NCBI GenBank assembly: GCA_964569695.1
Contig: CAZMUA010000016.1
Location: 5,270-69,269 of the forward strand
DNA length: 64,000 bases
Source: an uncultured Woeseiaceae bacterium
GTDB taxonomy: Bacteria > Acidobacteriota > Vicinamibacteria > Vicinamibacterales > UBA823
Reading direction: 5' to 3'
Each line of letters begins with the position of its first letter. Position 1 is the stretch's first letter. Below, one piece after another: positions 11,303-27,226 of the stretch. The notes beneath the pieces are model-generated. The model worked only from the letters and a program-made list of their open reading frames with translations, ran no database searches and was not told the origin of the DNA. The translations under genes and the position numbers were made by a program.

Positions 11303-11478
11303 GTCGAAAGCTTAAGGCTAAAGGCTGTTTATCTCTGAAGTCAACCCAAGGTTGCCTCAGAAAACAACAATTTTTGTACTTTTTGAACAGTCGATGGTTT
11401 GAGGTCCTCCTTGTGATATTTTTCTTGGACATATGCGTGTTTCGTTGATTGACTGGACTGGCCCAAGGGAGGCTTCGA

Positions 11479-13839
11479 ATGTTTTTTTGGTTGAATGGAA
11501 TCATTGCACGGGTGCTACTGATCGGACTAATTTCTGTTGGCACTGCCCTTTCGGTAATTGCACAGGATAGGCTGTCAGCTGGCGTCGAAGCACTCACGGC
11601 AGAAGATTATGCCCAAGCCGAACAATTCATGAGCTATAACACCGCACCCCTAGTCTCCGGTGCGACCGTGCTGCCAACTTGGCTTGAGAATGATCGTTTT
11701 TGGTACCGCAATATAACAAATGAGGGTACCGAGTTTGTGTTGGTTGATCCTCTTGAGGGTACACGTCAATTGGCATTTGATCATGCTCGCCTGGCCGAAG
11801 CGCTATCGGCAGCGACTAACTCCACATACCGTGCCGAGACGCTCCCGTTTGAAGTTTTCGATTTTGCATCTGACGGCCAGACCGTTGTATTCGAGCTTGA
11901 TGATCAGGCGTGGCGTTGCGATGTAGGGGTGGTTGAATGTGTGACCGGGACGCAAGCCGCATCAGGGTCAAATGAACAATCTCGAAATGATGCTATATCC
12001 CCAGACGGCAGTCTTGCTGCATATCTTCACGATCACAACATTTGGGTACGGAATCAGGAAACAGGTGAGGAAACACAAATCACCTTCGACGGTGTCGAAG
12101 ACCTTGCCTATGCCACTGACAATGCAGGCTGGCGTAGAAGTGATCGTCCAATCGTAGTGTGGTCTCCAGATTCCAAGAAGCTGGCTACCTTTGTGCAAGA
12201 TCAGCAAGATGTGGGGAGGATGCACCTTGTGGAAACCCGGGTAGGGCACCCGATCCTCCATTCGTGGGTGTATCCGCTTCCTGGTGATGACGTCATCACA
12301 ACAATTCAGCGGGTCGTGGTAGATGTCGAGGAAAAGCGCGTTATACGTTTCTTGATGCCGGCTGACCAACACCGGTCCACACTCTGTGACGATCTGCCAT
12401 GTCGAGGTGTGTGGCGCGACGTCCAATGGCATCCGGATAGTTCTCGTGTGGCCTTTGTCTCAACGTCTCGCGATCACAAACAGGCGCACTTGAGGATTGC
12501 TGATGCAATGACTGGAGAGATTCGTGACTTGTTCGAAGAGGTTGTCGAGACGTTCTTTGAATCAGGCAATGGGATGGTGAATTGGCGTTACTTGCCACGT
12601 TCTAACGAGATCATTTGGTTTTCGCAGCGTGATGAGTGGGGCCATCTTTATCTCTACGACCTTCAGTCAGGAGAATTGAAGAAGCAAATTACAACTGGTG
12701 TTGGTAACGTGACGCAGTTGTTACGGGTCGACGAAGAAAACCGTTTACTGTATTTTCTTGGTGTCGGACGAGAACCCGGACGGAATCCCTACTATCGTCA
12801 TCTTTATCGTGTTGGTTTCGATGGTCAGCAACTGAAGTTGTTAACCCCTGAGGACGGCGATCACAATGTGACACTTTCGCCATCGGGTCAATTTTTCATT
12901 GATCGTAATTCAGAACCAGATGTACCACCGGTTGCAACACTACGAGCGGCAGACGGCCAAGACATATTAACGTTAGAGCAAGCGGACATCACTCGACTAA
13001 CTGCCACGGGCTGGCGCCCACCGCTTCCATTCACGGTCAAGGCGCGGGATGGCGTAACTGATTTACATGGTCTTCTGTTTCGACCAACCAATTTTGATGA
13101 AAATCGTCAATATCCGATCATTAATCAAATTTATCCTGGCCCCCAAACAGGAAGTGTCCGTGGTCGTAGCTTTGCAGCTTCGCGTGGAGATGCGCAGGCA
13201 CTGGCCGAACTAGGTTTTGTTGTGGTGCAGATCGATGGGATGGGTACACCTTGGCGTTCTAAATCATTTCATGAGGCGTATTACGGCGACATGGGAGATA
13301 ACACGTTACCAGATCAGGTGACAGGTATGCAGCAATTGGCTGCACGGTTTGCATGGATTGATCTTGAACGGGCCGGCATTTATGGCCACTCAGGTGGTGG
13401 CTATGCAACGGCGGCAGCTATGTTTAGGTACCCTGATTTCTTTAAAGTTGGTGTTTCTGGAGCGGGGAATCATGACAACCGCGTCTATGAAGATGATTGG
13501 GGAGAGAAGTGGCAGGGTTTGCTGACTCGCTCTGCGGACGGTTCGACCAACTACGATAATCAGGCCAATCAGAACATTGCAGAAAATCTATCGGGTAAAC
13601 TGCTTCTCGCTCATGGGACGATGGACACCAACGTACCCGTGTACAACACCTTACTCGTCGTCGATGCGTTGATTAAGGCAAACAAGGATTTTGATTTACT
13701 ACTACTCCCAAATCGCGGACATGGTTTTGGCAATGAGCCCTACTGGATCCGGAAGCGATGGGATTATTTTGTCAGGCACTTACTCGGGGCAGAACCTCCC
13801 CAAGGATATGCACTTCGACCGGCTTCGAGTACTCGCTAA
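11479..13839 (+). CDS. S9B dipeptidyl-peptidase IV-family serine peptidase (beta-propeller plus alpha/beta hydrolase)
   Basis: ATG at 11479 preceded by GGGAGG. Signal peptide present. Nucleophile IYGHSGGGY. Acid and His segments HGTMDTNV and NRGHGF. Confidence 0.85.
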   Translation: MFFWLNGIIARVLLIGLISVGTALSVIAQDRLSAGVEALTAEDYAQAEQFMSYNTAPLVSGATVLPTWLENDRFWYRNITNEGTEFVLVDPLEGTRQLAFDHARLAEALSAATNSTYRAETLPFEVFDFASDGQTVVFELDDQAWRCDVGVVECVTGTQAASGSNEQSRNDAISPDGSLAAYLHDHNIWVRNQETGEETQITFDGVEDLAYATDNAGWRRSDRPIVVWSPDSKKLATFVQDQQDVGRMHLVETRVGHPILHSWVYPLPGDDVITTIQRVVVDVEEKRVIRFLMPADQHRSTLCDDLPCRGVWRDVQWHPDSSRVAFVSTSRDHKQAHLRIADAMTGEIRDLFEEVVETFFESGNGMVNWRYLPRSNEIIWFSQRDEWGHLYLYDLQSGELKKQITTGVGNVTQLLRVDEENRLLYFLGVGREPGRNPYYRHLYRVGFDGQQLKLLTPEDGDHNVTLSPSGQFFIDRNSEPDVPPVATLRAADGQDILTLEQADITRLTATGWRPPLPFTVKARDGVTDLHGLLFRPTNFDENRQYPIINQIYPGPQTGSVRGRSFAASRGDAQALAELGFVVVQIDGMGTPWRSKSFHEAYYGDMGDNTLPDQVTGMQQLAARFAWIDLERAGIYGHSGGGYATAAAMFRYPDFFKVGVSGAGNHDNRVYEDDWGEKWQGLLTRSADGSTNYDNQANQNIAENLSGKLLLAHGTMDTNVPVYNTLLVVDALIKANKDFDLLLLPNRGHGFGNEPYWIRKRWDYFVRHLLGAEPPQGYALRPASSTR

Positions 13840-13853: not shown

Positions 13854-15101
13854 TTATTGCGTAATTGTTGCGTTCACTAGTTGGGCAATTGCCGCGAGGG
13901 TGGTTTGTGCGGAAGCCAACCCTAATCGAAAGTCGTCGTCTGTGAATGTGTCAAACACATCAGTGGGCTGATGCCAATGTGGGTCCCAGCCGGCACCGAT
14001 GTGAGCGCCACGTTCATTCTCCCGTAAGCTGATGGCCGGCACCAGGTCCATAAAAGGGGTTGAATCGGTATTGGTCATGTGCGGACCAACCGTGGCTGGA
14101 TAATCGGTTGCGTATGCATCATTGGTGGCCTTGAAAAAGAAAGCGAGAGCCCGAGCCTCAGCCGCCAATTCCGCAGTGGATTGGAATTCAATATTGATGT
14201 CCGCTTCAGGTCGTTGGTCTGGACTGACGGTTCCGTCGGCCCGTGGCGCACCGTGATCGAAGAGCATCATGTCGTGTTGCACCATGCCGAGCCATCGCGG
14301 TTCTGGATAGTTACCAGAACCCGGTGGGACTTCTTGCCCCTGTAATGCTGCTCGTTGTTCGACGTACGCTCGACTTCCGTTGAGGCCTGTTTCTTCGTTG
14401 TTCCAGAGGGCAAAGCGGATCGACCGCTCGGTCTGGACATCAGGAGCGTTAAAAATACGTGCCAATTCCAGCACAATTGCCGTGCCAGAGCCATCGTCGT
14501 TGGCGGCCTCTCCCCATCCATGGCCGTCCATATGGGCACCGATAATGTACATTTCACCGGGATTCGTCGTTCCGATTTTCGTGCAATAGACTTCCTGTCG
14601 TGGACCATTAGTCGCTGGTTCACGATTTATTTCACGTAAACGTTCGTTGGGCTGCTTCAGTGGATCGGTATTCACGCCAGTGGCTCCCCGATAACCAAAG
14701 ATTGAACTTCCTCCAGGACCTGAGCCGTTCCGCCCAATCTGTTTGCCTGTTGCCGTGGGGCCATCGACATTTAATGGATTTTGCGATCGGCGGCCTGATG
14801 ACCTGTTGCGTGGAGCTGGATCGTGGATGTAGTCAATTCGTTCAGTGGTCGTACAGCCGACACTTTGCAGCTGAGCTTCAATCCAATCAATCGCCTGACG
14901 ATTGCGTTCAGTGCCTTGCCGTCGATCGCCGAACTGGGTCAATCCTTTAAGCGTCGTCTTGTACTGCGTCAAATCTAGCCGGCTTACCAAGGTTCTGACG
15001 TCCTCGTTGTTCGGATCAGGTTGCTGCGCTTGCGCCGTGGTTACTGAGGAGGTCGCGACTAGGAGCAGGGAAGTGATCACAAGAAAAACGTTTGTTCGCA
15101 T
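13854..15101 (-). CDS. Exported M28-family aminopeptidase
   Basis: Start refined to the ATG at 15101 (signal peptide MRTNVFLVITSLLLVATSSVTTAQA). Zn-ligand segments IGAHMDGHGWGEAANDDGSGTAIVLE and WNNEETGL. Confidence 0.85.
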   Translation of the reverse strand: MRTNVFLVITSLLLVATSSVTTAQAQQPDPNNEDVRTLVSRLDLTQYKTTLKGLTQFGDRRQGTERNRQAIDWIEAQLQSVGCTTTERIDYIHDPAPRNRSSGRRSQNPLNVDGPTATGKQIGRNGSGPGGSSIFGYRGATGVNTDPLKQPNERLREINREPATNGPRQEVYCTKIGTTNPGEMYIIGAHMDGHGWGEAANDDGSGTAIVLELARIFNAPDVQTERSIRFALWNNEETGLNGSRAYVEQRAALQGQEVPPGSGNYPEPRWLGMVQHDMMLFDHGAPRADGTVSPDQRPEADINIEFQSTAELAAEARALAFFFKATNDAYATDYPATVGPHMTNTDSTPFMDLVPAISLRENERGAHIGAGWDPHWHQPTDVFDTFTDDDFRLGLASAQTTLAAIAQLVNATITQ

Positions 15102-15129
15102 GACGTGAAACCTTTCTTGTCTACCTTTG

Positions 15130-15699
15130 TCAGTTATCCTGAAGTGCCGGATTAATATACCCCGCTGGTAACACACGGTCAGGGTCAGGTCGGATACTCA
15201 GATACGTGACGTGATCTTCAACGTGTTGCCAGCCATGAAACAATCCTGCTGGAATGACGATAATGTCGCCTGCTGACACCTGACGACTATACCCATCACG
15301 TGTGGTCGCCGAAGCACCTGGCCCTGCGAGGATGGTTACCGAGTCGCTGTCGGGTGGTCGGGCGACTACATCGAGTAAGGTACCGCCTGTTGTCAGCGTT
15401 CCAGATCCTGACACGACATAGTACACCTCAGTGACTTTTGAATGCGTAAAGCCGGTAACGGCAGTTCCATCAGGCGCTACAGGACCACGATGCAGGATCC
15501 CGATCGCGACCTGCGAATGTCCGGTATCGATGACCCTGACCTGTCGATCGACACCGCCATCAGGGCTGTTAAGCACCGCCTCAATCTCGGCCTTAAGAAT
15601 GTCGGTTGCTGGCAACGCGTCTGCAGTTTCCTGAGCCATCGCGACGACCGGCAGTGATAGGGTGCAGCAAATCAGTATCGTCAGTAAATTTCTTGGCAT
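15130..15699 (-). CDS. Exported cupin-domain protein
   Basis: Start refined to the ATG at 15699 (signal peptide ...LPVVAMAQE). Cupin motifs GFTHSKVTEVYYVVSGSG and GDIIVIPAGLFHGW. Confidence 0.6.
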   Translation of the reverse strand: MPRNLLTILICCTLSLPVVAMAQETADALPATDILKAEIEAVLNSPDGGVDRQVRVIDTGHSQVAIGILHRGPVAPDGTAVTGFTHSKVTEVYYVVSGSGTLTTGGTLLDVVARPPDSDSVTILAGPGASATTRDGYSRQVSAGDIIVIPAGLFHGWQHVEDHVTYLSIRPDPDRVLPAGYINPALQDN

Positions 15700-15755
15700 T
15701 CTGATACTCCAAGTGTCTCTTTTCCTGGGCAATCTTCGACTAATGCGAAAACGGT

Positions 15756-16643
15756 TTAAGGGTCTGGTGGCGTACGAGAACGGCGTTCGTATTGTTGTCT
15801 AAGTTCTGGAGAAAGAGGATAGACGTCGCGAAAACGATGATCTCGCGACCGCAAGAGTTCACGCTGATAATCCTCCGCCAAATCTCCTGCGGCTGCCTGT
15901 TCGAGGATCGTTTCCACGAGGTGAGCTGGGAAAAACAGGATTCCTTCTTCTTCTGCGACGACGATATCTCCAGGCAATACGGTGACCGTGCCGAAACGAA
16001 TTGGCGTGTTCCAGTCTGCGCCGAGCCAGCTCGTGGTATGTACGTCGAAGAATCGCGCAAACACCGGAAAGTCTGCGAAGTCATCTCCTTGGAGTTCACG
16101 AAGGTCGCGGCTCCCACCATCGATCACCACACCCGAAACTCCCCGCAGCTTGATCCCAAGAGCCCCCATGTCGCCAAATAAATTGTGGCCGTCATTGCCT
16201 CCGAGGTCTGCAACAATCACATCACTTGGTTGAGCTTCTTCTGCTGCTCGCGCGTAGTACCGACGGTCCCAGTCACCTTCTTTGGCGAGTGTATCAATCG
16301 CGTCGACAAAGTCAGGACGTGGAGGGAGGAACCGCATCGTTAAAGCACGACCAACAAGCCGAGTCCCAGGTTGGGTACTAGTAAACCCTCGGACATAGTT
16401 GACTTTATAGTCGCCGAGTGCTCCCCAAATTTTTTCAATTTGCAGTGTTTTCAGTTGGTCGAGTTGTGCTTGGGTCACGGTCGTCCGTTGCGAATCAAGT
16501 ACGTCCATAATTGCGGAATAAGACGTTCGATTGGCACGAAAGCCGTCTGGAACTGGGACCGGAGCCTGGAGTTCTTGTGCGAAGCTATTCGCTCCAATGA
16601 GAAGGTATGAAAACGCAAGCAACGAGAGGACCCATGAACGCAT
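15756..16643 (-). CDS. Exported RraA / HMG-CHA aldolase-family protein with a ~100-aa N-terminal extension
   Basis: Signal peptide MRSWVLSLLAFSYLLIGANSFAQE. Core VIVADLGGNDGHNLFGDMGALGIKLRGVSGVVIDGGSRDLRELQ matches the RraA-family signature (V.V.D.GG...GD..A....G..G.V.DG..RD). Confidence 0.75.
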   Translation of the reverse strand: MRSWVLSLLAFSYLLIGANSFAQELQAPVPVPDGFRANRTSYSAIMDVLDSQRTTVTQAQLDQLKTLQIEKIWGALGDYKVNYVRGFTSTQPGTRLVGRALTMRFLPPRPDFVDAIDTLAKEGDWDRRYYARAAEEAQPSDVIVADLGGNDGHNLFGDMGALGIKLRGVSGVVIDGGSRDLRELQGDDFADFPVFARFFDVHTTSWLGADWNTPIRFGTVTVLPGDIVVAEEEGILFFPAHLVETILEQAAAGDLAEDYQRELLRSRDHRFRDVYPLSPELRQQYERRSRTPPDP

Positions 16644-16740
16644 GAACAGTCTCCTTGAAGGGGCAAACCATGCTGGAATGCGAGCAGAACTATCCTATGA
16701 AACGTAAGAGCCTTTGAACGGCTACAGGACCACGTGTGTG

Positions 16741-17628
16741 TTATTGCTCCGCGTTAAGTTCAGCGTAGATTGCTTCGACATTGGCTGCAGCGCTGGCGAT
16801 TTGACCCACTTGCAATTGGTAGTCGGCATAGCGGGCTGGCAAGTTCAGCGACTCGGTGGTCTCTTGCGCCGACTTACCCTCGGCCATACCGCGTCGCACT
16901 GCTGCGAGGAAATCACGGTTGAATTCTCCGAACTCTCGGAAATCGGCCCAGCTTGAGATTTCGCGGTGTCCAGGGATTACAGTATCGACGCCAGTAATGC
17001 CGTCTGCAGCCCCTAACACCGTATCCGGGTACTCGACGCCACTGCCACCGTTGTTGGTGTCAATGAATGGCGTTCCTTTCCAAGCAAATAGATCGCCCGT
17101 ATGGGCTACGCCCAGCGAGGGAAAGACGATAATGGCGTCACCATTCGTGTGGCCTCTCCCAAAGTAATACAGATCGATTTGGTCGTCTCCCTCAAGCAGT
17201 GTGAGTGTGTTGTCAAAGGTTCGACTTGGTAAATACTGTTGCCCTGCCGCAGTCTGAAACTGTTCCATCTTTTCCATGTTGATCTTGGTATTCGCATGCG
17301 CAACTACTTCGACTGGCTGTGCAAAATCCGTATTACTACCCACATGATCAAAATGCGTATGGGTATTGAGAATCATCGTGACTGGTTGGTCAGTTACGGT
17401 CCGAATCTTGTCAAGAATCGCATTCCCCCAATTGGGCACTTTGGTGTCGACCACCACCACACCGTTCTCTGTAACAAACGCCGCAGTATTGCCACCCCCA
17501 CCCGTAATGACGTACAGGTTGTCTTTCACCTGTTCGATTTCAGCGACGTTCTCTTGGGCACCTGGCCCAGTCACTATGGCCACCACGCCTACAGCGATCA
17601 GTACAATCGATGCCAGAGCTCGCTTCAT
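16741..17628 (-). CDS. Exported MBL-fold hydrolase, paralogue of 3005-3910
   Basis: Signal peptide present. LNTHTHFDHVGSN. EQVKDNLYVITGGGGNTAAF is identical in both copies. RBS GGGAGG. Confidence 0.85.
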   Translation of the reverse strand: MKRALASIVLIAVGVVAIVTGPGAQENVAEIEQVKDNLYVITGGGGNTAAFVTENGVVVVDTKVPNWGNAILDKIRTVTDQPVTMILNTHTHFDHVGSNTDFAQPVEVVAHANTKINMEKMEQFQTAAGQQYLPSRTFDNTLTLLEGDDQIDLYYFGRGHTNGDAIIVFPSLGVAHTGDLFAWKGTPFIDTNNGGSGVEYPDTVLGAADGITGVDTVIPGHREISSWADFREFGEFNRDFLAAVRRGMAEGKSAQETTESLNLPARYADYQLQVGQIASAAANVEAIYAELNAEQ

Positions 17629-17739
17629 TATTCGCCTCCCAAGAAAAATGTGTACAACAGCGGAAGTATACCTGAGTCTGGTTCGGAACAGCCAGAGACT
17701 CCGTCACTTTCCCTGTTTAGCTTGTTGCTAGGTATCACC

Positions 17740-18426
17740 TTAGCGGGTCCGTGGTGAGGTGCCAAGTACGTCTCCTTCCGTCGTCACGCCTAAGCCATTG
17801 AGCACACGGTTTGCATAATTAAAGTAGGACACCACCTGATTCGCTTCAAGAATCTCACCATCTGTCGCACCGGCGCTCCGGAGTCGCTCAATATCTCCTT
17901 TTTCGAGATGTCTCGGTGTGAGGGTGAGTTGTCGCGCGTAATGGAGTAAGGCGAGTTCCTTTCCTGAAAAGGCCATAGCGGGTTGATCGCTTTCGAGCGC
18001 TTCAAGAATCGTATCCGTTCGTTTGTCCTGATTTAACGCATGACGAAGCCCAAGAGCATGATGTGCCACACTGTAGTCCCCGTGGTTTAAAAGACTCGTG
18101 TAGACACCAAGTGTTTCAAGAAACCATGCCGGCAGTTGATTCGCTGGGTCATGCAGCACAGAGCGGTACAGCGTGTAGTGACCTTCCAGGGTGTGAGGGC
18201 GAAGGCTGTGCACCTTCACCACATTGTCAATATTTCCGCTAGCGCCACCAACGATATCGTAGAGGCGCCGAAGCTCACCTTGGGATGCCTCGTAAGGCAC
18301 TACACGAATCCAACTGAAGGGTACAGTGACCCCTTGCGAGTCGCTGTCCGATTGCTCAGTGGCAGGTATGGGCAGACTCAGCAGCAAAAACCCCATGGTG
18401 AGTAACAAGCTGGGCTTCGAACACAT
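17740..18426 (-). CDS. Exported AhpD/carboxymuconolactone-decarboxylase-like (peroxidase-related) protein lacking the CxxC cysteines
   Basis: Start refined to the ATG at 18426 (RBS GAGGTG, signal peptide). The motif SLLNHGDYSVAHH aligns position for position with the family signature S..N.C.YC..HH. Confidence 0.6.
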   Translation of the reverse strand: MCSKPSLLLTMGFLLLSLPIPATEQSDSDSQGVTVPFSWIRVVPYEASQGELRRLYDIVGGASGNIDNVVKVHSLRPHTLEGHYTLYRSVLHDPANQLPAWFLETLGVYTSLLNHGDYSVAHHALGLRHALNQDKRTDTILEALESDQPAMAFSGKELALLHYARQLTLTPRHLEKGDIERLRSAGATDGEILEANQVVSYFNYANRVLNGLGVTTEGDVLGTSPRTR

Positions 18427-18570
18427 GACACACCTCACTTCAAGCAACTAGGTTAGAGACTTTTGCCATAACACCCTCGAACCCTGTTTTCGGTCCGGGT
18501 GACTAAAAAAAGTATACCTTGACGTACTGGGGGTCGTAAGTTGAGATAGGAGTTACAGCAGGAGGAGTGC

Positions 18571-19803
18571 ATGAATCGACGGACTTTACTCAAGACTGGC
18601 AGTATGGCGGCTCTAGGATTCGGTTTTGGTGGTTGTGCGGCCCCGAAACAGATGACAAACATCGCGTTGCCGTCACGGCGGCCCATGTTTTATCTACCAC
18701 CAATCCGAGCTTCTTGGGATCGCGTGATTCGTACAACGGTCGGTTTGCGCCCTCATCGGCCTACGGGGTTCAGGCTCGAGGCTGAGAAATTTGATGGCAA
18801 GACCGTCATTCATAATTACGGACATGGCGGGGCTGGTCTTTCGTTGTGTTGGGGGACTGGCGCCATGGCGGCTGATATGGCCTTGGACGCGATCAATGGC
18901 GATCGCAAAGTCGCGGTTCTCGGGTCTGGAGCTTTGGGCCTTGCTGCTACGCGACAGCTCCAACGTCGTGGTTGTGACGTGACGATTTATACGGCCGCAG
19001 TGCCGCCTCATACGACGTCGAATATGGCATACGGTGTGTTTTCACCGACATCAGGGCTTCTGTCGGCTCGACGTGCGTCAGCCTGGGAAGTGCAATTCCG
19101 TGAGGCGGTTGAGATTTCCTACCGTCAGCTTCAGTTGTTTGCGGGTGCCAACTACGGCGTCTCTTGGATGGATTCGTACGGCACGATGGAGGAGTTGCCC
19201 ACCTCAAGGAGACGAGCTGAACGCCCCCGTGATCCGGACGCGGAAGGATTGTTGCCTTCGTCTATAGCCAATCTGGAGGCCGGACGAGAGGTCCTTCACC
19301 CAGGCGAGCACCCATTTACGACGCCGTATGCCTCCCGACGGATCTCGATGCGAATTGAGCCGACGCTGTTTCTTGAAGCCATGCTCCGGGAAGTGCGTCT
19401 ATTCGGTGGGCGGACCGTGATCAGAAAGTTCGCGTCCCCGGGCGACCTCATGATGCTTAAAGAGTCAGTGATTGTTAACTGCACTGGCCTGGGCGCACGA
19501 GATATCTTTGCGGATCAAACGCTGCTTCCGTTTAAGGGACAATTGACGTTTCTGGTGCCGCAGCCTGAGGTGAACTACCAGTTTGGATGCATGCCACGGT
19601 CGGATGGCATTGCGCTCGGGAGTACCAGGGAGCGTGGTGTGTGGTCGATGGAGCCAGATTTAGAGGTCCAACAGCGGATTGTTGACCGCGCGATCAGCCG
19701 GTTTGCTCTTCTCCGCGAGCCGCAAGCGGGTAGTCGAATGGCAAGGACGCGCCCTTTACGCAGCACGCCCAGTGTCGAGAATTTTTTCGACCTGGAATCC
19801 TAA
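18571..19803 (+). CDS. Tat-exported FAD-dependent D-amino-acid-oxidase-like oxidoreductase, circularly permuted
   Basis: RBS GGAGGAG. Tat motif MNRRTLLK. VIHNYGHGGAGLSLCWG (normally C-terminal in DAAO) precedes the Rossmann segment KVAVLGSGALGLAATRQL. VIVNCTGLGARD...LPFKGQL follows. Confidence 0.8.
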   Translation: MNRRTLLKTGSMAALGFGFGGCAAPKQMTNIALPSRRPMFYLPPIRASWDRVIRTTVGLRPHRPTGFRLEAEKFDGKTVIHNYGHGGAGLSLCWGTGAMAADMALDAINGDRKVAVLGSGALGLAATRQLQRRGCDVTIYTAAVPPHTTSNMAYGVFSPTSGLLSARRASAWEVQFREAVEISYRQLQLFAGANYGVSWMDSYGTMEELPTSRRRAERPRDPDAEGLLPSSIANLEAGREVLHPGEHPFTTPYASRRISMRIEPTLFLEAMLREVRLFGGRTVIRKFASPGDLMMLKESVIVNCTGLGARDIFADQTLLPFKGQLTFLVPQPEVNYQFGCMPRSDGIALGSTRERGVWSMEPDLEVQQRIVDRAISRFALLREPQAGSRMARTRPLRSTPSVENFFDLES

Positions 19804-19897: not shown

Positions 19898-22024
19898 TCA
19901 GTGCGCTACAGCGTCTTGGACCAGACCCGGCAACCGTAGTGCTACGAGCGAACTTGGATACTGCTGACCGCCAATCTGGACAACGATATGCTGCACGCCG
20001 TGGTGCGCATAAGTCATCATCCCATATTGTCCCGTCGTTGGAATTTCAACCGTGCCCACTAGAGCTCCAGTCGTTTTATCAACGGCATGGAGGACCGGTT
20101 CACCTCGACGCCCGTCGGTCATGACAAGCAGGTCGCCAGCCACCATCGAAATTGCTGGCCCTCCACCACCAGTCCGGCCTTCATCACGGAGCCAATCACC
20201 TAAGCTCCTCCCGTCACCATTGTTGATGTTCTGAAGGGCGTCGTGGTTCCAGATTCGTTCGGGCGTAGCGCCGCTGGGAACCCACCAGAGGTGTTCCCCT
20301 GTATTCATGTCGACTGCTGTAATGCGGCTATATGGTGGCTTGAAAATCGGAAGTCCTTGAGGGCCCGTAAGTCGTCCACCAGGACCCGCAACCCAATCCA
20401 CGATCGTTACGCCGGTCGTCATTGGATTGTCAGGTTCGTCATTGTCAACGCCAGGAGCCACCGAACCCGCACTGCAACCCATATTTGACGAGACGTACAT
20501 AATGCCGGTCGTTGGATCCATTGAGACTGGATGCGTAATGTTCACGCCACCGCTACAACGCACATTCGCTTCGACTCCAACAGTATTGCCTTCATGCAAC
20601 CGTGGCATGTAGGGGCCACCAACGTTGTAGCGGCTCATGATTTCGAGCGCCTCGGCATGTAATTCCGGTGTGAAGTCGATCACGTTGTCTTCAGTCAAGC
20701 CAATCGGTTCCACCGGGTCGGGTTTTGTTGGGAACGGCTGTGTTGGTGAGGTCCAGTTACCTGGCACCACGGTCTCGGGAACCTCACGCTCTTCAATTGG
20801 CCAGATGGGTTCCCCGGTTTCCCGGTTGAAGGCGAATATCAACCCCTGTTTCGTATTCTGGATCACGGCGGGAACCTGCTCGCCATCCACTGTGAGGTCA
20901 GCCACAATCGGGACGTTAGGGAGGTCGTAGTTCCACTGATCATTATGAACGGTTTGGAAGTGCCACACTCGCTCGCCTGTCTGGACATCGAGCGCAATAA
21001 CGCTTGTGCCGTACAGATTGTCTCCAGGTCGATGACCACCGTAGTAGTCAATGGTTGGCGGATTAGTCGGGATAAAGACGAGCCCACGTTCTTCATCGGC
21101 CGACAATGGGGCCCAGGAGGAAACATCCCCAGTGTACTGCCAAGCATCATTTAACCAGGTGTCGTGTCCGAATTCACCCGGTCGTGGAATGACGTGGAAT
21201 TTCCAGAGGTGTTCACCAGTTGCTGCATCATATCCAAGGATATCGCCAGGTACGTTTTCCGCACGAGTTTGGTTGTAGCCTTGTTCCGCTGAATTACCTA
21301 CAACAACAACGCCATTCACCACAATAGCTGGAGAGGAGCTTGTGATATAGCCGAGGTCTTTCGGAATACCGTAGTCTGGGTCGAAAGGCTGGTTATAAGC
21401 TTGCCAAGGTCCCCAATCTTCCAACAGGTCCGGTAAGAGGTCGACGACACCTGTTTTGGGAAAGCCCGGGAGTGGTACAGCTTGTCCCCAGTTTTCCAAG
21501 TGTGCACCCGTTTTGGCGTCAAGGGCGTGGAGGAAAAAAGCTGGGGTAATCACATAGATGATTCCGCGACCATTAATTTCGTTATAGGCCACACCCTTGC
21601 CGTAGCTGGCTCGCATCGAGCGCTCCCACCGCTTGGTGCTGGGTTCACGGTAGGTCCAGAGTGTCTCTCCTGTACTGGGCTCGATCGCCACCACCGTGCG
21701 ACGTTCACCGGCAACGGTGTACAGAAGGCCGTCGATGTAGGTTGGGGTAGATTTAGAAGTCGAGACTGGCGTTCGACCAAAGTTTCCACCCTCCCAAATC
21801 CAGGCCACTTCAAGGTCCTCGAAGTTATCGGCGTTAATTTGTGTCAAGGGGGAGTAGCGGGTTCCCCAGGCGTCGGCACTCTGGTATCGCCATTCCCCAT
21901 AGACGTTGCCACGGTCTGGTGCGACTTGCGCTAGGGCCAAATTAGACGTTACGACCAGAAGGCCTAGGCTCAGCACGGCATAAGAACAGGAGGGGCGCCA
22001 ACAGCGCGTCGGGCTTACACTCAT
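19898..22024 (-). CDS. Exported PQQ-dependent dehydrogenase (8-bladed beta-propeller quinoprotein family)
   Basis: Signal peptide present. N-terminal WRYQSADAWGTRYSPLTQINADNFEDLEVAW. Repeated W-containing propeller motifs. Length 708 aa. Confidence 0.85.
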   Translation of the reverse strand: MSVSPTRCWRPSCSYAVLSLGLLVVTSNLALAQVAPDRGNVYGEWRYQSADAWGTRYSPLTQINADNFEDLEVAWIWEGGNFGRTPVSTSKSTPTYIDGLLYTVAGERRTVVAIEPSTGETLWTYREPSTKRWERSMRASYGKGVAYNEINGRGIIYVITPAFFLHALDAKTGAHLENWGQAVPLPGFPKTGVVDLLPDLLEDWGPWQAYNQPFDPDYGIPKDLGYITSSSPAIVVNGVVVVGNSAEQGYNQTRAENVPGDILGYDAATGEHLWKFHVIPRPGEFGHDTWLNDAWQYTGDVSSWAPLSADEERGLVFIPTNPPTIDYYGGHRPGDNLYGTSVIALDVQTGERVWHFQTVHNDQWNYDLPNVPIVADLTVDGEQVPAVIQNTKQGLIFAFNRETGEPIWPIEEREVPETVVPGNWTSPTQPFPTKPDPVEPIGLTEDNVIDFTPELHAEALEIMSRYNVGGPYMPRLHEGNTVGVEANVRCSGGVNITHPVSMDPTTGIMYVSSNMGCSAGSVAPGVDNDEPDNPMTTGVTIVDWVAGPGGRLTGPQGLPIFKPPYSRITAVDMNTGEHLWWVPSGATPERIWNHDALQNINNGDGRSLGDWLRDEGRTGGGGPAISMVAGDLLVMTDGRRGEPVLHAVDKTTGALVGTVEIPTTGQYGMMTYAHHGVQHIVVQIGGQQYPSSLVALRLPGLVQDAVAH

Positions 22025-22555: not shown

Positions 22556-22707
22556 GTGATCCTTTCAGTCTAGACGTGATTACGAACATTCGCGTTGCAG
22601 CAATGATGCGACAAATTCGGCACCCATACGGCGATTGATCAAAAGTTTATACTATCTTGGTAATAACCTTATGGTTGAGGCCTTTGTTGGTTTTGGTAGA
22701 GGGCGTT

Positions 22708-23787
22708 ATGCGACTTCACCACACAGGTCACCTCATCACAGTGGCCGTGCTGTTTGCTGCATGCAGTGGTAGTTCGGGCTCCAGTCCAATTGCGCCAAGT
22801 GCGACTACGAATCAAATTTCGACTCCTCTCACATTTGGCTCGCCGCAGTGGGTCCTCATTGGTCAGGTGCGCTCGTCCGTGACTACTCATCCCGTGACTA
22901 ATGCGCAGCTTACATTGACCACGCCAGCGCTTGGTGCCGTTACGGCATGGGACGGTGTATTCCGTCTGAAACACCCTGGCAACCCTGGAGGCGAGATTCC
23001 CTATGTGGAGTTTTCACGTGAAGGATTCCTGACGCGGAAGGTCTCGTTACCGTGGCTCCAAACAAATATCACTCCGTGGACGAACGTAGCCACGACGCAG
23101 GCGCTCACGATGATTGAAACCCTCGCACCATTTAATGACACGATGTGGCGTGATTTGATCTACGGTCAATTCGATTCACCCGACACCTTACAGTCGAGTT
23201 ATTCCAGACGATTGAATAACTTGAATCCAAATTTTTATATTCGACTAGGCAATGAGGCGGGACAACGTGTGGTCTCGGATATCGATCGGGATATGATTCG
23301 GAAGTACGTGCCGAAGATTGTGCCGCAAATCACCGGGCAACCATACACTGGCCGTATTGAAGAGGGTCTTACCGATCGTGATGAAATCGGATGGATCACT
23401 ATCGAGGTCCAAGATATCGATCAGAATATTTGCGGGAAGGCATATGTTGGGCGACCGAATGGACGCATCATCCTCAACCGGAATCAATCGAAGTGTCCTT
23501 CCCATGCAGCCATTTGGCGATGCAGTTCGAGTGACTATGTTCGTACCGAAACGCTGACGCATGAAATTGGACATGCTTTCGGTCTCCGTCATACTCGAGG
23601 TCGATACGACATTATGTGGCCGTATGCGAAAGCCACCTGCGACCGTTGGACTTTTAACGATCAAGAACAGTACCACGCTAACCTTGCCTATCAGAGGCCG
23701 CGCTATAGTCAATATCCCGATAGCGATCCTCAATCAGTGGTGTATCAAGCCACGACGGCCGGCAACTCAATTCTCGTTGTTAATTAA
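22708..23787 (+). CDS. Metzincin-type zinc metalloprotease lipoprotein (matrixin-like catalytic domain)
   Basis: ATG at 22708 with lipobox LFAACSG. Zinc motif HEIGHAFGLRH. Met-turn DIMWPY. Confidence 0.75.
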   Translation: MRLHHTGHLITVAVLFAACSGSSGSSPIAPSATTNQISTPLTFGSPQWVLIGQVRSSVTTHPVTNAQLTLTTPALGAVTAWDGVFRLKHPGNPGGEIPYVEFSREGFLTRKVSLPWLQTNITPWTNVATTQALTMIETLAPFNDTMWRDLIYGQFDSPDTLQSSYSRRLNNLNPNFYIRLGNEAGQRVVSDIDRDMIRKYVPKIVPQITGQPYTGRIEEGLTDRDEIGWITIEVQDIDQNICGKAYVGRPNGRIILNRNQSKCPSHAAIWRCSSSDYVRTETLTHEIGHAFGLRHTRGRYDIMWPYAKATCDRWTFNDQEQYHANLAYQRPRYSQYPDSDPQSVVYQATTAGNSILVVN

Positions 23788-24624: not shown

Positions 24625-26010
24625 ATGGCAGAACCATGGAGCGAAGTGACACGGCCCTCGGAATCGTCAGACGACGCTGACCGCACCGCATTGACTCGCG
24701 AGTTGTCGTTGTTCGATGCGCTCATGATCAATGTCGGGATCACACTGGGGTCAGCCATCTTCATTGTTCCGGCGATCATTATCGCGAACGTTGGGACGGC
24801 GTTTATGTCGGGCGTCGTGTGGATTATCGCCGGCGTGCTGTCCTGGTTTGGCGCAGTCACGTTTGCTGAATTGGCGGTGCTCTATCCACGTGCTGGAGGT
24901 GAGTATGTCTACTTAGAAAAGGCGTACACTCGCTTCTGGGGATTTTTGTACGGTTGGACTCTCTTCAGTGTCATTCAGACAGCGTCGATTGCCGCTGTGG
25001 CGGTCGCATTCATGACCTACTTCGATTACTTTGTCCCGATGAGTCCAACCATTCTTAATATGAGCGCCATCGGGTTGATTCTGATTCTCTCGATTTGGAA
25101 CTGTATTAGTCTCCGCACTAGTGCGAACACGCAAAATTCAACCACCGTTGCGAAGCTCGCACTGGTGGCGGTCATGGTCGCTTCGTGCTTTTGGTACGGT
25201 GGGGATGGTGTTAATGCGTTTCGTCAGATGGTTCCGACCGACCCGGCGACCCGCACCGTGGCCGGATTTGGCGCGGCGATGGTTGCGGCGCTCTGGGCCT
25301 TTGATGGGTGGGTCAGCGTCACGTTCGTCGGGGGCGAAGTGAAGGACCCCAGTCGGGCATTGCCACGCGCATTATCGTACTCGGCGCTCGGTTTGATCGG
25401 CATCTATCTACTAATCACGAATGGTTATATCTACGCACTGCCGGTTGGGGAGATGGCGCTCTCGGAACGGGTGGCCGCGGATGCTGTCGAGAATGTTTTC
25501 GGCAATGTTGGCGGTGGCCTCGTCTCACTGGCCGTTGTAGTTTCCTGCTTCGCTGCACTGAATGGGTTCATTTTTACTGGCGCCCGTGTGTACTACGCTA
25601 TGGCTCTTGATGGCGCGTTCTTCGGGTGGGCGGCAAAACTCAGCGCCCGCAAGATTCCGGTCTACGCCATTCTCGCCCAGGGTATCTGGGCAAGCGCCTT
25701 GGTCTTGACTGGGCGTTACGATCAACTGTTCACCTACGTCGTCTTTACGTCCTGGCTGTTTTATATGCTCGGAGCGTTTGGCGTCATCGTACTGCGATAC
25801 CGGGAACCACACCGGCCGCGACCTTATCGGGCGTTCGGCTATCCAGGAATCCCGATTTTCTTCGCCGTCTTTGCGGCGGCACTGTTGCTCCAGACGCTCT
25901 GGGACAATCCACGGGATTCGCTTATTGGGTTGGGGATCATGTTGATTGGAGTACCGGCGTACTACTATTGGACGCGGAACCCCGCCGGGCACGACCGGAT
26001 CAGTCCTTAA
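24625..26010 (+). CDS. APC-superfamily amino acid permease
   Basis: 12-TM pattern. N-terminal LSLFDALMINVGITLGSAIF...FAELAVLYPRAGGEYVY is typical of APC/LAT permeases. Confidence 0.85.
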   Translation: MAEPWSEVTRPSESSDDADRTALTRELSLFDALMINVGITLGSAIFIVPAIIIANVGTAFMSGVVWIIAGVLSWFGAVTFAELAVLYPRAGGEYVYLEKAYTRFWGFLYGWTLFSVIQTASIAAVAVAFMTYFDYFVPMSPTILNMSAIGLILILSIWNCISLRTSANTQNSTTVAKLALVAVMVASCFWYGGDGVNAFRQMVPTDPATRTVAGFGAAMVAALWAFDGWVSVTFVGGEVKDPSRALPRALSYSALGLIGIYLLITNGYIYALPVGEMALSERVAADAVENVFGNVGGGLVSLAVVVSCFAALNGFIFTGARVYYAMALDGAFFGWAAKLSARKIPVYAILAQGIWASALVLTGRYDQLFTYVVFTSWLFYMLGAFGVIVLRYREPHRPRPYRAFGYPGIPIFFAVFAAALLLQTLWDNPRDSLIGLGIMLIGVPAYYYWTRNPAGHDRISP

Positions 26011-26110: not shown

Positions 26111-27226
26111 ATGGACGTTAAGCCTCGTGACCCGATGCCGCCGGACGGCATAACACTGCCAGCCCGGTACTACACGGACCCCACGCTGTTCACAGCTGAG
26201 CTTGAGCGGTTTTTCCGCCGTATGTGGGTGTGTGTGGCTCGTACGGATGAGCTTCCGGAAGTTGGCAGTTACGTTCTCCGAGATCTAGCCGGCGAAAGTG
26301 TCATTGTCGTTCGCCATGCAGCGGATGGCATTTCTGCGTATCACAACATCTGCCGACATCGTGGCACAAGACTCTGCACGGACGCTGATGGACAGTTCGC
26401 CGGGCAGATCCAATGTCCGTATCACGCCTGGACCTATGACCTCGCCGGTCGCTTGGTTGGTGCGCCACACATGGAAGAGGTGCCACATTTCGAGAAGGCT
26501 GACTATCCGCTGCAGTCGCTCTCGGTGGCTTGCTGGGATGGCCATGTGTTTTTGCACCGGGCGACAGAGCCGGAGCCACTCGACCAACAGCTTGCCGGCT
26601 TGCTAGATAAATTTCGACCTTGGTGCATGGAGGACCTTCGACGTGGCACACGGATCACCTATGACGTCAAGGCCAACTGGAAACTGATTGTGCAGAACTA
26701 CAGTGAATGTCTCCACTGTCCGGTTATCCATCCTGAGCTCAGTCAGCTGTCCCATTACCTCAGTGGCGAGAATGAGCCATTGCAGCCCACCTATATGGGC
26801 GGGCGCATGGACTTTCGCGACGGGGTTGACACGCTGACGGGTGATGGAGTTCGACGACGTGCCTGTTTGCCAGCGCTCAGTCCAGAGGATCAACGCCGCG
26901 CATATTTTTATGCGGTGTTTCCCAATCTGTTACTCAGCTTGCATCCCGATTACATGCTCACTCACACGCTGTGGCCGCTTGCGTCGGATCAGACGCGGGT
27001 CATCTGCGAGTGGCACTTTCATCCTGACGAAATGTCGAAGTCGGACTTCGACCCGCACGACGCCGTCGACTTCTGGGACAAGACCAATCGGCAGGATTGG
27101 CGAGTCTCGGAACTGGCGCAAGAAGGAATTTCCTCACCCGCGTATTGTCCCGGTCCTTATTCCAATCGTGAAGATCTGCTGTACGCGTTCGATCGATTCA
27201 TCGTGCAAGGGCATGCCTCCGATTAG
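26111..27226 (+). CDS. Rieske [2Fe-2S] non-heme-iron oxygenase, alpha subunit
   Basis: Rieske motif CRHRGTRL...CPYHAW. Mononuclear iron motif NYSECLHCPVIHPEL (H-x4-H). Confidence 0.85.
   Translation: MDVKPRDPMPPDGITLPARYYTDPTLFTAELERFFRRMWVCVARTDELPEVGSYVLRDLAGESVIVVRHAADGISAYHNICRHRGTRLCTDADGQFAGQIQCPYHAWTYDLAGRLVGAPHMEEVPHFEKADYPLQSLSVACWDGHVFLHRATEPEPLDQQLAGLLDKFRPWCMEDLRRGTRITYDVKANWKLIVQNYSECLHCPVIHPELSQLSHYLSGENEPLQPTYMGGRMDFRDGVDTLTGDGVRRRACLPALSPEDQRRAYFYAVFPNLLLSLHPDYMLTHTLWPLASDQTRVICEWHFHPDEMSKSDFDPHDAVDFWDKTNRQDWRVSELAQEGISSPAYCPGPYSNREDLLYAFDRFIVQGHASD

What the first reader, a model, noticed from the sequence alone, without database searches (positions are those of the whole stretch)
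18571..19803. Circularly permuted, Tat-exported D-amino-acid-oxidase homologue
In canonical DAAO (for example the human enzyme) the order of segments is:
- N-terminal Rossmann (VVVIGAGVIGL)
- …VIVNCTG…
- …LEPTL…
- GFRPVRPQIRLE
- C-terminal VIHNYGHGGYGLT

In this protein, the Tat signal is followed directly by DRVIRTTVGLRPHRPTGFRLE…VIHNYGHGGAGLSLCWG. Only then come KVAVLGSGALGLAATRQL, VIVNCTGLGARD…LPFKGQL and a C-terminus (…VQQRIVDRAISRFALL). That C-terminus corresponds to the region just before the canonical GFRP segment.

The old termini therefore appear fused, and new termini opened at about DAAO residue 276. Combined with Tat export and a lipobox-like GFGGC, this indicates a periplasmic flavoenzyme of unusual topology.
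Basis: partly seen in the sequence, partly recalled or inferred. Interest (0 to 1): 0.6.

Follow-up and report, generated by a model that had tools for sequence, protein, structure and literature searches.

The report
Circularly permuted, exported DAAO-like flavoenzyme
This gene encodes a relative of D-amino-acid oxidase whose normally last ~65 residues come first, behind an export and lipid-anchor signal; it belongs to a large family in Acidobacteriota and Gemmatimonadota for which I found no publication or curated model, so it is a natural rewiring of a textbook flavoenzyme fold.

Summary

**The permutation**
- ORF 18571-19803 (+), 410 aa, has a strong ribosome-binding site and is intact.
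- Residues ~45-110 match the C-terminal segment of DAAO/DDO. This segment carries the carboxylate-clamp Arg and the HNYGHGG motif.
- Residues 112-385 match DAAO/DDO residues ~4-265.
- Against a single canonical acidobacterial DAAO-like protein, BLAST gives two out-of-order matches. Against a tandem duplicate it gives one continuous, higher-scoring match. This held in 4 of 4 tests.
- An MSA-based AlphaFold model is confident (pLDDT 87.7). Its best structural matches are human DAAO and DDO.

**Export signal**
- The twin-arginine motif is conserved family-wide.
- The lipobox Cys22 is conserved in 111 of 112 aligned sequences.

**Distribution**
- The sampled counts are 39 of 301 Acidobacteriota genomes, 45 of 301 Gemmatimonadota genomes, at least 585 species genomes, and 292 clusters at 50% identity.
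- This 2.5 Mb genome has three copies.
- Canonical-order relatives in the same phylum lack signal peptides. They were not found together with the permuted form.

**Open points**
- Function is inferred, not shown. The most likely role is extracytoplasmic oxidation of D-amino-acid-like substrates.
- Substrate and electron acceptor are unknown.
- A conserved C-terminal ESFFDLES tail is unexplained.

I found no publication or curated family. This scan has already found and confirmed the same family on other genomes.

The parts
18560..18565 (+). Shine-Dalgarno AGGAGG, 5 nt upstream of the ATG
   Evidence: Read directly from the sequence. It supports 18571 as the true start. Only 7 in-frame codons lie upstream before a stop.
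18571..19803 (+). Complete gene for the permuted DAAO-like flavoprotein (410 aa plus stop)
   Evidence: ORF list and translation. Pfam DAO PF01266 E 1.3e-23. More than 4000 homologues, with full-length hits at 54-92% identity.
18571..18636 (+). Signal peptide, residues 1-22: twin-arginine motif NRRTLLK, h-region, and lipobox GFGGC with Cys22
   Evidence: TIGR01409 16.4 bits (cut-off 16.7) and Pfam TAT_signal 15.3 bits (cut-off 22.7). R3 and R4 are at least 90% conserved and Cys22 is conserved in 111 of 112 sequences.
18637..18702 (+). Variable, low-confidence tether, residues 23-44, between the lipid-anchor Cys and the folded core
   Evidence: pLDDT 48-69. Length and sequence vary in alignment A1.
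18703..18900 (+). Transplanted segment, residues 45-110, equivalent to DAAO/DDO residues ~270-335. It comprises three strands (52-62, 68-74, 77-83) and a helix (86-107). It carries R60 (equivalent to DAAO R283 / DDO R278) and HNYGHGG (81-87).
   Evidence: PDB phmmer alignments. Tandem-duplicate BLAST. Alignment to canonical acidobacterial proteins. pLDDT 93-98. R60, R63 and H81 are invariant in 112 sequences.
18892..18906 (+). Junction, residues 108-112 (AINGDRK region), where the ancestral C- and N-termini are fused
   Evidence: The helix ends at 107 and the Rossmann beta1 starts at 113. R112 is invariant in A1.
18907..19725 (+). Main body, residues 113-385, collinear with DAAO/DDO residues ~2-265. 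It comprises the Rossmann beta-alpha-beta with GSGALG (118-123), TTSN (148-151), VNCTGLG (302-308), KGQ (322-324), Y336, MPRSDG (341-346) and the last core helix 364-379.
   Evidence: Pfam DAO profile positions 1-304 on residues 113-385. PDB alignments. Foldseek top hits human DAAO 6kbp and DDO 6rkf, E about 5e-12, about 280 aligned columns.
19183..19320 (+). Family-specific insertion, residues ~205-250: a variable acidic/basic loop followed by the conserved PGEHPF motif
   Evidence: Absent from the canonical acidobacterial DAAO-likes in the alignment. H247 is conserved in 111 of 112 sequences and F249 in 112 of 112. pLDDT is 69-82 over 211-240.
19726..19800 (+). C-terminal extension, residues 386-410, ending in the conserved tail PSVENFFDLES
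   Evidence: Consensus P-x-VESFFxxES in A1. Only the two long paralogues carry it in this genome. pLDDT is 50-65. It is absent from the ~370-aa subfamily.

Best explanation
The gene encodes a natural circular permutant of the D-amino-acid oxidase / D-aspartate oxidase branch of the DAO (GR2) flavoenzyme family.

**Architecture.**
- The ancestral C-terminal unit is a strand bearing the substrate-carboxylate clamp Arg, a beta-hairpin, the HNYGHGG FAD/active-site loop and the final helix. It now precedes the Rossmann beta-alpha-beta, joined to it by about 5 residues.
- The new termini lie in the loop that in DAAO separates the ...LEPTL helix from that strand.
- The fold itself is unchanged.

**Proposed route and activity (inferred).**
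1. The protein binds FAD and folds in the cytoplasm.
2. It is exported by the Tat pathway.
3. It is lipidated on Cys22 and tethered by a flexible ~20-residue linker on the periplasmic side.
4. There it most likely oxidises a D-alpha-amino-acid-like substrate to the imino acid, which then gives a keto acid plus ammonium. The flavin is re-oxidised by O2 (giving H2O2) or by another acceptor.
5. This would act as part of extracytoplasmic scavenging of peptide and cell-wall-derived amino acids.

**Shown:** the permutation, fold conservation, conservation of FAD motifs and the clamp Arg, conservation of the signal peptide, and family size.

**Inferred:** Tat rather than Sec export, lipidation, substrate class and electron acceptor.
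For: **Permutation.**
- Out-of-order PDB matches.
- Pfam profile positions 297-353 lie upstream of positions 1-312.
- The de-permuted sequence aligns across the junction in one domain.
- The tandem-duplicate BLAST gives one continuous HSP in 4 of 4 cases.
- A full collinear alignment of de-permuted members with canonical acidobacterial DAAO-likes.

**Fold.**
- AF2 with 112 sequences gives pLDDT 87.7 and pTM 0.85. The order of elements is beta-beta-beta-alpha followed by beta-alpha-beta.
- The Foldseek top 33 hits are all DAAO/DDO (E 5e-12 to 1e-8). Glycine oxidase and MnmC follow only at about 1e-7.

**Catalytic and FAD residues.** R60, R63, H81, N151, Y336, R343 and D345 are invariant in 112 sequences. 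GxGxxG, TTS and NCTG are shared with the canonical forms.

**Export.**
- RR and Cys22 are conserved.
- TIGR01409 scores 16.4 and 17.2 bits against a cut-off of 16.7.
- The ten canonical-order relatives start directly at the Rossmann strand without a signal.

**Not an artefact.**
- More than 4000 homologues.
- 292 clusters at 50% identity with E<=1e-30.
- At least 585 species genomes.
- 39 of 301 Acidobacteriota and 45 of 301 Gemmatimonadota genomes.
- Three paralogues in this genome.

**Context.**
- Exported peptidases, an amino-acid permease and other exported enzymes lie around this copy.
- The C8 paralogue sits in a tight same-strand MFS - DAO - S9 peptidase run.
- S9 prolyl oligopeptidase (6 loci) and amidase (5 loci) recur next to homologues.
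Against: - No biochemical data exist for any member.
- The equivalent of DAAO Tyr228 is Gly in this protein and is absent from the whole tail-bearing subfamily. Substrate binding therefore differs from the textbook DAAO.
- Gene neighbourhood is not conserved: no flanking family occurs in more than 11 of 80 loci.
- The Tat model score is just below its cut-off for this copy. A 21-residue signal is short for Tat, so Sec/SPII export cannot be excluded.
No circular-permutation-aware superposition was run.
- Oxidase and dehydrogenase activity cannot be told apart from sequence.
Confidence: 0.72

Rival explanations
1. The protein has the same permuted fold and is exported, but it is not a D-amino-acid oxidase. 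Either it acts on another carboxylate-bearing amine or hydroxy acid (for example glycine/sarcosine-type amines, opines, or a peptide- or peptidoglycan-bound D-residue). Or it is a dehydrogenase that passes electrons to a periplasmic or membrane acceptor rather than to O2.
For: - The Tyr228 equivalent is missing in this subfamily.
- The family has its own invariant residues (N151, H247, F249, Y336, D345) and a PGEHPF insertion.
- No NCBIfam equivalog reaches its cut-off.
- A PQQ dehydrogenase, also a periplasmic redox enzyme, lies within the 6-kb flank in 7-11 of 80 loci and is adjacent here.
- Lipid anchoring would suit electron transfer at a membrane.
Against: - The closest sequence and structure relatives are DAAO/DDO by a wide margin.
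- The carboxylate clamp Arg and the HNYGHGG loop are invariant.
- The short subfamily keeps the Tyr228 equivalent.
Confidence: 0.3
2. Export is by the Sec pathway as an ordinary SPII lipoprotein. FAD would be acquired outside the cytoplasm or the protein exported unfolded. The RR pair would be only a basic n-region.
For: - TIGR01409 scores 16.4 bits, below the 16.7 cut-off.
- Pfam TAT_signal scores 15.3 bits, below the 22.7 cut-off.
- The signal is only 21 residues long.
- Only 39 of 117 members of the short subfamily match a strict Tat regular expression.
Against: - RR followed by x-[LF]-[LI]-K is conserved in at least 90% of the long subfamily.
- From general knowledge, non-covalent FAD enzymes of this fold need cytoplasmic cofactor insertion, which is the classic reason for Tat use.
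- The C8 paralogue passes the TIGR01409 cut-off.
Confidence: 0.15
3. This is not a true permutation. The N-terminal segment would be an extra partial duplicate, with the real C-terminal segment degenerate or lost. Or the gene would be an assembly or fusion artefact or a pseudogene.
For: The protein has a 25-residue C-terminal extension after the last core helix, which could be a relic.
Against: - The short subfamily ends right after the core helix with no extension, yet keeps the same motif order.
- No second GHGG or GxRPxR motif is present.
- The order is identical in thousands of sequences, including closed chromosomes from two phyla.
- The frame is intact and has a good ribosome-binding site.
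- The N-terminal segment is modelled as an integral part of the fold at pLDDT 93-98.
Confidence: 0.02

Closest known systems
Human D-aspartate oxidase (DDO/DASPO, EC 1.4.3.1; PDB 6RKF)
   Same: - It is the best sequence match (E 4.6e-24 native order, 7.5e-26 de-permuted) and a top structural match (E 5e-12, rmsd 3.4-4.1 over about 280 columns).
- It shares the GxGxxG Rossmann motif, TTS, NC(S/T)GLG, (R/K)GQ, the GLRPxR clamp Arg (DDO R278 = R60) and HxYGHG(G/S).
   Different: - DDO is collinear, peroxisomal and soluble. This protein is circularly permuted at about DDO residue 265 and carries a signal peptide and lipobox.
- By the alignment, DDO Tyr223 falls in a five-residue DDO segment with no counterpart in this protein, and DDO Arg216 aligns with Gln337.
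- This protein has extra insertions and a C-terminal tail.
Mammalian and yeast D-amino-acid oxidase (DAAO, EC 1.4.3.3; PDB 1KIF/1DAO, 2DU8, 6KBP, 1C0I, 7CT4)
   Same: It has the same two-domain fold and FAD motifs. The Arg283 equivalent is invariant. These are the top Foldseek hits.
   Different: - The order of segments differs and the location is different (exported).
- The Tyr228 equivalent is Gly339 here.
- The PROSITE-type DAO signature, recalled from memory, is matched by eye except at its last position.
- Activity is untested.
Canonical-order DAAO-like proteins of Acidobacteriota (unnamed; loci L089-L098, about 315-330 aa)
   Same: - They are the closest collinear relatives found. They align end to end with the de-permuted protein, at 34-47% identity over the matched stretches in the genome search and 25-30% for the main-body HSP in pairwise BLAST.
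- They share VNCTGLGAR, P(I/V)(R/K)GQ, (I/M)PRxD..LGGT, VGLRPxRP and HNYGHGGxG..(S/A)WG.
   Different: - They start directly at the Rossmann strand with no signal peptide.
- They lack the PGEHPF insertion and the tail.
- They form a separate clade (SH-aLRT 99, branch length 2.2).
- They were found in 10 of 301 sampled genomes, none of which also has the permuted form.
Glycine oxidase ThiO, sarcosine oxidase, MnmC C-terminal domain and DadA-type D-amino-acid dehydrogenases (other PF01266 members)
   Same: They belong to the same Pfam family and general fold.
   Different: - They are much more distant. PDB sequence E is above 0.1 and Foldseek E is 1e-7 or worse.
- NCBIfam scores are far below the cut-offs, for example ThiO 36 bits against 250.8.
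- All are collinear.

Membership tests
DAO superfamily (Pfam PF01266, FAD-dependent oxidoreductase) | Significant match to the family HMM above the gathering score | tested here: met
   84.6 bits against a cut-off of 27.9, E 1.3e-23, in two stretches in permuted order.
DAO superfamily (Pfam PF01266) | Rossmann beta-alpha-beta with GxGxxG for the FAD ADP moiety | tested here: met
   G118-S-G120-A-L-G123 is invariant. The model shows beta 113-117, alpha 121-132 and beta 136-141.
DAAO/DDO clade (EC 1.4.3.3 / 1.4.3.1) | Closest relatives by sequence and structure are DAAO/DDO rather than other DAO-family enzymes | tested here: met
   - The 17 best PDB sequence hits are all DAAO/DDO, and the next hit has E 0.004.
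- The Foldseek top 33 are DAAO/DDO.
DAAO/DDO clade | Arg that clamps the substrate alpha-carboxylate (DAAO R283 / DDO R278) in the G-x-R-P-x-R strand | tested here: met
   R60 in VGLRPHRP aligns with DDO R278 and is invariant in 112 sequences.
DAAO/DDO clade | HNYGHGG(x)G loop near the flavin (contains DAAO G313) | tested here: met
   H81-N-Y-G-H-G-G87 is present. H81 is invariant, and Y83, H85 and G87 are at least 92% conserved.
DAAO/DDO clade | Active-site Tyr (DAAO Y228 / DDO Y223) four residues before the (I/M)P(G/R) turn | tested here: not met
   By alignment with canonical acidobacterial proteins the position is Gly339 here. Tyr is present in 47 of 112 family members, all in the short subfamily.
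DAAO/DDO clade | Collinear order: Rossmann motif at the N-terminus and the GHGG segment at the C-terminus | tested here: not met
   The order is reversed. This is the finding itself.
DAAO/DDO clade | FAD-dependent oxidative deamination of D-amino acids with O2 as acceptor | not testable with these tools
   This needs an enzyme assay. No characterised member was found in the literature searches.
Tat-exported lipoproteins | Twin-arginine motif (S/T-R-R-x-F-L-K type) before an h-region | tested here: inconclusive
   - NRRTLLK is present and RR is at least 90% conserved.
- TIGR01409 scores 16.4 bits against a cut-off of 16.7 for this copy and 17.2 bits for the C8 paralogue.
- Pfam TAT_signal scores 15.3 bits against 22.7.
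Tat-exported lipoproteins | Lipobox with an invariant Cys at the cleavage site | tested here: met
   - GFGGC is present, with Cys22 in 111 of 112 sequences and +1 Ala in 92 of 112.
- It fits the PROSITE PS51257-type pattern as I recall it. No dedicated predictor was available.

The most novel reading that the evidence does not exclude
The permutation is functionally coupled to export. Moving the termini away from the buried Rossmann beta1 would allow an N-terminal Tat signal and lipid anchor. In the long subfamily the new C-terminus carries a conserved acidic-aromatic tail (P-x-VESFFDLES). That tail would replace the lost Tyr228-type lid residue and gate the active site, or dock an unknown periplasmic electron-acceptor or partner protein. 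This would give a membrane-tethered periplasmic D-amino-acid dehydrogenase/oxidase system of a kind not described before. It could be important for recycling D-amino acids from peptidoglycan debris in marine and soil organic nitrogen.
Probability: 0.15. Interest if true: 0.78.

Novelty: new variant of a known kind. Interest (0 to 1): 0.6.

Why it matters
[quoted passage not shown] It serves as a mechanistic paradigm, a drug target, a step in industrial 7-ACA production, a biosensor component and a chemogenetic H2O2 generator.

**What a natural permutant offers.**
- A natural, abundant circular permutant shows that the fold tolerates re-threading at the FAD-domain/interface-domain boundary.
- It gives ready-made new termini for protein engineering.
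- It provides a clean natural test case for how circular permutations arise. Canonical cytoplasmic forms and permuted exported forms both occur in one phylum.

**Possible ecological role.** An extracytoplasmic, lipid-anchored D-amino-acid-type oxidase is present in about 13-15% of sampled Acidobacteriota and Gemmatimonadota genomes, with three copies in this streamlined 2.5 Mb genome. This would point to periplasmic processing of D-amino acids from cell-wall debris, a sizeable pool of soil and marine organic nitrogen. It could also be a periplasmic source of H2O2.

**Annotation.** Databases currently label these proteins only as 'FAD-dependent oxidoreductase' or 'D-amino-acid oxidase', with no note of the topology.

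Tried and rejected
1. **Single-sequence AlphaFold** gave pLDDT 34.8 and was useless. It was replaced by the MSA-based model.
2. **Conserved gene neighbourhood.**
   - tblastn of 11 window neighbours against 80 related loci found none conserved: CMD-like 0, M28 0, RraA 0, S9 0, PQQ dehydrogenase 11.
   - De novo clustering of flanking ORFs found no family in more than 9 loci.
   - Operon-based function assignment was therefore dropped.
   - The divergent pairing with a CMD/AhpD-like gene, noted earlier by the scan in a close relative, is not a family-wide feature.
3. **C-terminal ESFF tail as a general sorting signal.** It was rejected because, among 3203 open frames of at least 120 aa in this genome, only the two long paralogues carry it.
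4. **Partial duplication instead of permutation.** It was rejected because no second GHGG or GxRPxR motif exists and the short subfamily has no extension.
5. **Intermediates such as tandem-fused DAAO.** None was found among the 390 collected proteins. The one apparent canonical-order hit (P0138) is a fragment or chimera.
6. **Rooting the permuted/canonical tree** with distant PF01266 paralogues left permuted monophyly formally unresolved (support 29), although the canonical clade is separated with support 99.
8. **CE-CP-type superposition.** Model coordinates are not exposed to the Python box.
9. **Literature.** Six full-text searches found no description of a permuted or exported DAAO.
Full report
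**What is there.** The window holds an intact ORF at 18571-19803 on the plus strand, 410 aa.
- It is preceded by AGGAGG five bases before the ATG. Only seven in-frame codons separate the ATG from an upstream stop.
- It is flanked by genes on the opposite strand: a weak CMD/AhpD-like gene at 17740-18447 and a PQQ-dependent dehydrogenase at 19898-22024. It is therefore transcribed on its own.
- Pfam assigns it to DAO (PF01266; 84.6 bits; cut-off 27.9). No NCBIfam model comes near its cut-off.

**Is the motif order really permuted?** Yes, by five independent tests.
1. phmmer against all PDB sequences returns DAAO/DDO as the 17 best hits. The matched stretches are out of order. Residues 53-110 align to human DDO (6rkf chain numbering) 280-340. 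Residues 112-160 align to 13-63, and residues 260-375 align to 148-268.
2. In a six-frame search of the whole genome with the Pfam DAO model, profile positions 297-353 lie immediately upstream of positions 1-312 in the same frame.
3. An artificial de-permuted sequence (residues 111-385 followed by 44-110) aligns to DDO and DAAO in a single HMMER domain running straight through the junction. It scores 80.7 bits, against 39.6 and 33.5 bits for the separate pieces.
4. Searching 301 genomes of the same phylum with the de-permuted sequence gave a natural control.
   - All permuted genes split into two matches at query position about 275.
   - Ten genomes instead gave single matches crossing that position. 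Examples are query 3-336 in a 338-aa frame and 153-336 in a 336-aa frame.
   - These ten are canonical-order DAAO-like genes of about 315-330 aa.
   - Against a single copy, BLASTP gives two out-of-order HSPs. The main body scores 66-79 bits and the N-terminal segment 50-58 bits.
   - Against a tandem duplicate it gives one continuous HSP from query residue ~51 to ~400, at 104-117 bits and E 1e-28 to 1e-32.

The break lies between the helix ending ...LEP(T/S)L and the strand carrying the clamp Arg, which is about DAAO residue 270. The old termini are fused with essentially no added linker: helix 86-107, then AINGDRK, then beta1 at 113-117.

**Structure.**
- A single-sequence AlphaFold run failed.
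- With a 112-sequence alignment built from two homologue searches, the model reaches mean pLDDT 87.7 and pTM 0.85.
- The element order is strand 52-62, strand 68-74, strand 77-83 and helix 86-107. The classic beta-alpha-beta follows (113-117, 121-132, 136-141), then the rest of the two-domain fold, ending with helix 364-379.
- The transplanted segment and the junction are among the most confident parts (pLDDT 93-98).
- Foldseek against the PDB returns human DAAO, human DDO, pig DAAO and yeast/fungal DAAO as the top 33 hits, at E 5e-12 to 1e-8.
- The better superpositions cover about 280 columns, which is the size of the collinear body (for example rmsd 3.4-4.1 for 6rkf). Glycine oxidase and MnmC follow only at about 1e-7.
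- Model coordinates are not exposed, so a circular-permutation-aware superposition could not be run.

**Signal peptide.**
- The N-terminus reads MNRRTLLKTGSMAALGFGFGGC.
- The twin arginines are at least 90% conserved. Cys22 is conserved in 111 of 112 aligned homologues, usually followed by Ala.
- TIGR01409 (TAT_signal_seq) scores 16.4 bits against a cut-off of 16.7 for this copy, and 17.2 bits for the paralogue on contig 8.
- Pfam TAT_signal is sub-threshold at 15.3 bits against a cut-off of 22.7.
- The ten canonical-order relatives begin directly with the Rossmann strand (for example MQIVVIGAG, MTLRIAVVGSG) and have no signal.
- In the sampled genomes of this phylum, canonical order therefore goes with a cytoplasmic protein and permuted order with an exported one. 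I rate Tat export at about 75-80% and lipidation at about 80%. Neither is shown.

**Family and distribution.**
- The word-indexed search found more than 4000 relatives. The best 120 are full-length with 54-92% identity. They carry only generic names, from Vicinamibacterales, Acidobacteria, SAR202 and marine metagenomes.
- The exhaustive search of 50%-identity representatives gave 292 clusters at E<=1e-30. All listed full-length hits are collinear with the permuted query.
- Motif order GxRPxR < HxYGHGG < GxGxxG < NCTGLG holds in 108 of 119 full-length hits from the first search. No genuine canonical-order protein occurs among the 390 collected proteins.
- Sampling gave 39 of 301 Acidobacteriota genomes, concentrated in the window's own order and a few families. 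It gave 45 of 301 genomes of the phylum of two Gemmatimonadota-labelled loci.
- This 2.49 Mb genome has three copies: this one, C8:103374-104669 (-) and C15:36911-38062 (+).

**Phylogeny.**
- I built a tree of de-permuted members, the ten canonical proteins and four distant PF01266 paralogues.
- It separates the canonical clade (SH-aLRT 99, branch length 2.2) from two permuted subfamilies.
- One subfamily is the ~400-aa tail-bearing clade that includes this gene (support 99). The other is a ~370-aa clade that includes the C15 paralogue (support 94).
- One origin of the permutation is the most parsimonious reading. It is also backed by shared derived insertions and the shared signal and Cys.
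- The distant outgroup leaves the root formally unresolved (support 29).

**Active site and likely function.**
- Shared with canonical DAAO-likes and invariant in 112 family members are the clamp Arg (R60, equivalent to DAAO R283 / DDO R278), R63, H81 of HNYGHGG, the TTS-N stretch, NCTG, (K/R)GQ and the (I/M)PRxD turn with R343 and D345.
- Family-specific invariants are N151, H247/F249 in a PGEHPF insertion, and Y336.
- The DAAO Tyr228 equivalent lies four residues before R343. It is Gly339 here.
- That position is Tyr in 47 of 112 sequences, none of which has the C-terminal tail. All 40 tail-bearing sequences lack it. The pattern is confounded by phylogeny but is worth noting.
- The tail P-x-VE(S/N)FFDLES is conserved and modelled with low confidence.
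- In this genome the tail occurs only in the two long paralogues, so it is not a general sorting tag.

**Gene context.**
- Gene context does not define a pathway. No neighbour is conserved across 80 loci.
- There is a loose, recurrent association with exported hydrolases and transporters.
  - Around this copy lie an S9 DPP-IV, an M28 peptidase, an M12-like metallopeptidase and an amino-acid permease.
  - The C8 copy sits in a tight MFS - DAO - S9 peptidase run.
  - S9 prolyl oligopeptidase and amidase lie next to homologues in 6 and 5 loci.

**Best reading.** The protein is most likely an FAD enzyme assembled in the cytoplasm, exported by Tat and tethered by lipid. It would oxidise a D-amino-acid-like, carboxylate-bearing substrate outside the cytoplasm as part of peptide and cell-wall scavenging. 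Substrate identity and electron acceptor (O2 or another) remain open.

**Comparison with what is known.**
- The protein works like, and descends from, the DAAO/DDO clade. It fails two defining features of a textbook member: collinear topology and the Tyr228-type residue. Its activity is untested.
- I therefore file it as a new variant of a known kind, not as a DAAO.
- Six full-text literature searches found no description of a permuted or Tat-exported DAAO. No curated family model exists.

**Earlier findings of this scan.**
- The same family was flagged on at least four other genomes. Two follow-up agents confirmed the permutation.
- My tests were done independently on this window and agree with them.
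- I did not see the following in those summaries:
  - the canonical-order cytoplasmic relatives in the same phylum and their apparent mutual exclusivity with the permuted form;
  - the tandem-duplicate test against them;
  - the two-subfamily structure;
  - the complementary pattern of the tail and Tyr228;
  - the three paralogues here.

**Limits.** There is no experimental evidence of any kind. Prevalence figures come from samples of genomes.

Noticed in passing
Own genome G000: C8:103374-104669 (-) = L001:5375-6628 (-); C15:36911-38062 (+) = L002:5927-7063 (+): There are two further permuted DAAO-like paralogues in this 2.49 Mb genome.
- The C8 copy (417 aa, same ETFFDLES tail, RR plus GC lipobox) lies in a tight same-strand run: MFS transporter, then DAO, then a 941-aa S9 peptidase.
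- The C15 copy (378 aa) belongs to the short subfamily. It has no tail, keeps the Tyr228 equivalent, and has an atypical LASRC in place of the lipobox.
   Followed up: partly
Loci L089-L098 (ten Acidobacteriota genomes): These are canonical-order, signal-less DAAO-like genes of about 315-330 aa. They were found in 10 of 301 sampled genomes of the phylum. None of those ten also has the permuted form, and none of the 39 genomes with the permuted form has a canonical one.
   Followed up: partly
window 19765-19800 (residues 399-410): The conserved C-terminal tail P-x-VE(S/N)FFDLES is specific to the long subfamily. It is present only where the Tyr228-equivalent residue is absent. It is modelled with low confidence and its role is unknown.
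   Followed up: partly
window 13854-18447 (-): This is a same-strand run of M28 peptidase, cupin, RraA/aldolase-like, metallo-beta-lactamase-fold and weak CMD/AhpD-like genes upstream of, and divergent from, the DAO gene. The CMD-like gene has no homologue next to the DAO gene in any of 80 related loci.
   Followed up: partly
window 19898-22024 (-): A 708-aa PQQ-dependent dehydrogenase (PF01011, E 7.6e-153) is convergent with the DAO gene, 95 bp away. Homologues lie within 6 kb of the permuted DAO gene in 7-11 of 80 loci, mostly Vicinamibacterales. This may be synteny among relatives or a weak functional link between periplasmic redox enzymes.
   Followed up: partly
window 11449-13839 (+), 22657-23787 (+), 24625-26010 (+), 26111-27226 (+): The neighbours are an S9 DPP-IV-type peptidase, an M12/reprolysin-like metallopeptidase, an amino-acid permease and a Rieske ring-hydroxylating oxygenase alpha subunit. 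The region is rich in peptide and amino-acid scavenging functions.
   Followed up: no
L035 (JAPPHB010000020.1) and L012, L044, L047, L080: A MAG labelled Gammaproteobacteria (L035) is drawn from the same phylum sample as Gemmatimonadota-labelled genomes (share handles). Four MAGs labelled 'uncultured Bifidobacteriaceae' carry this Acidobacteria/Gemmatimonadota-type gene. These are probably mislabelled records.
   Followed up: no
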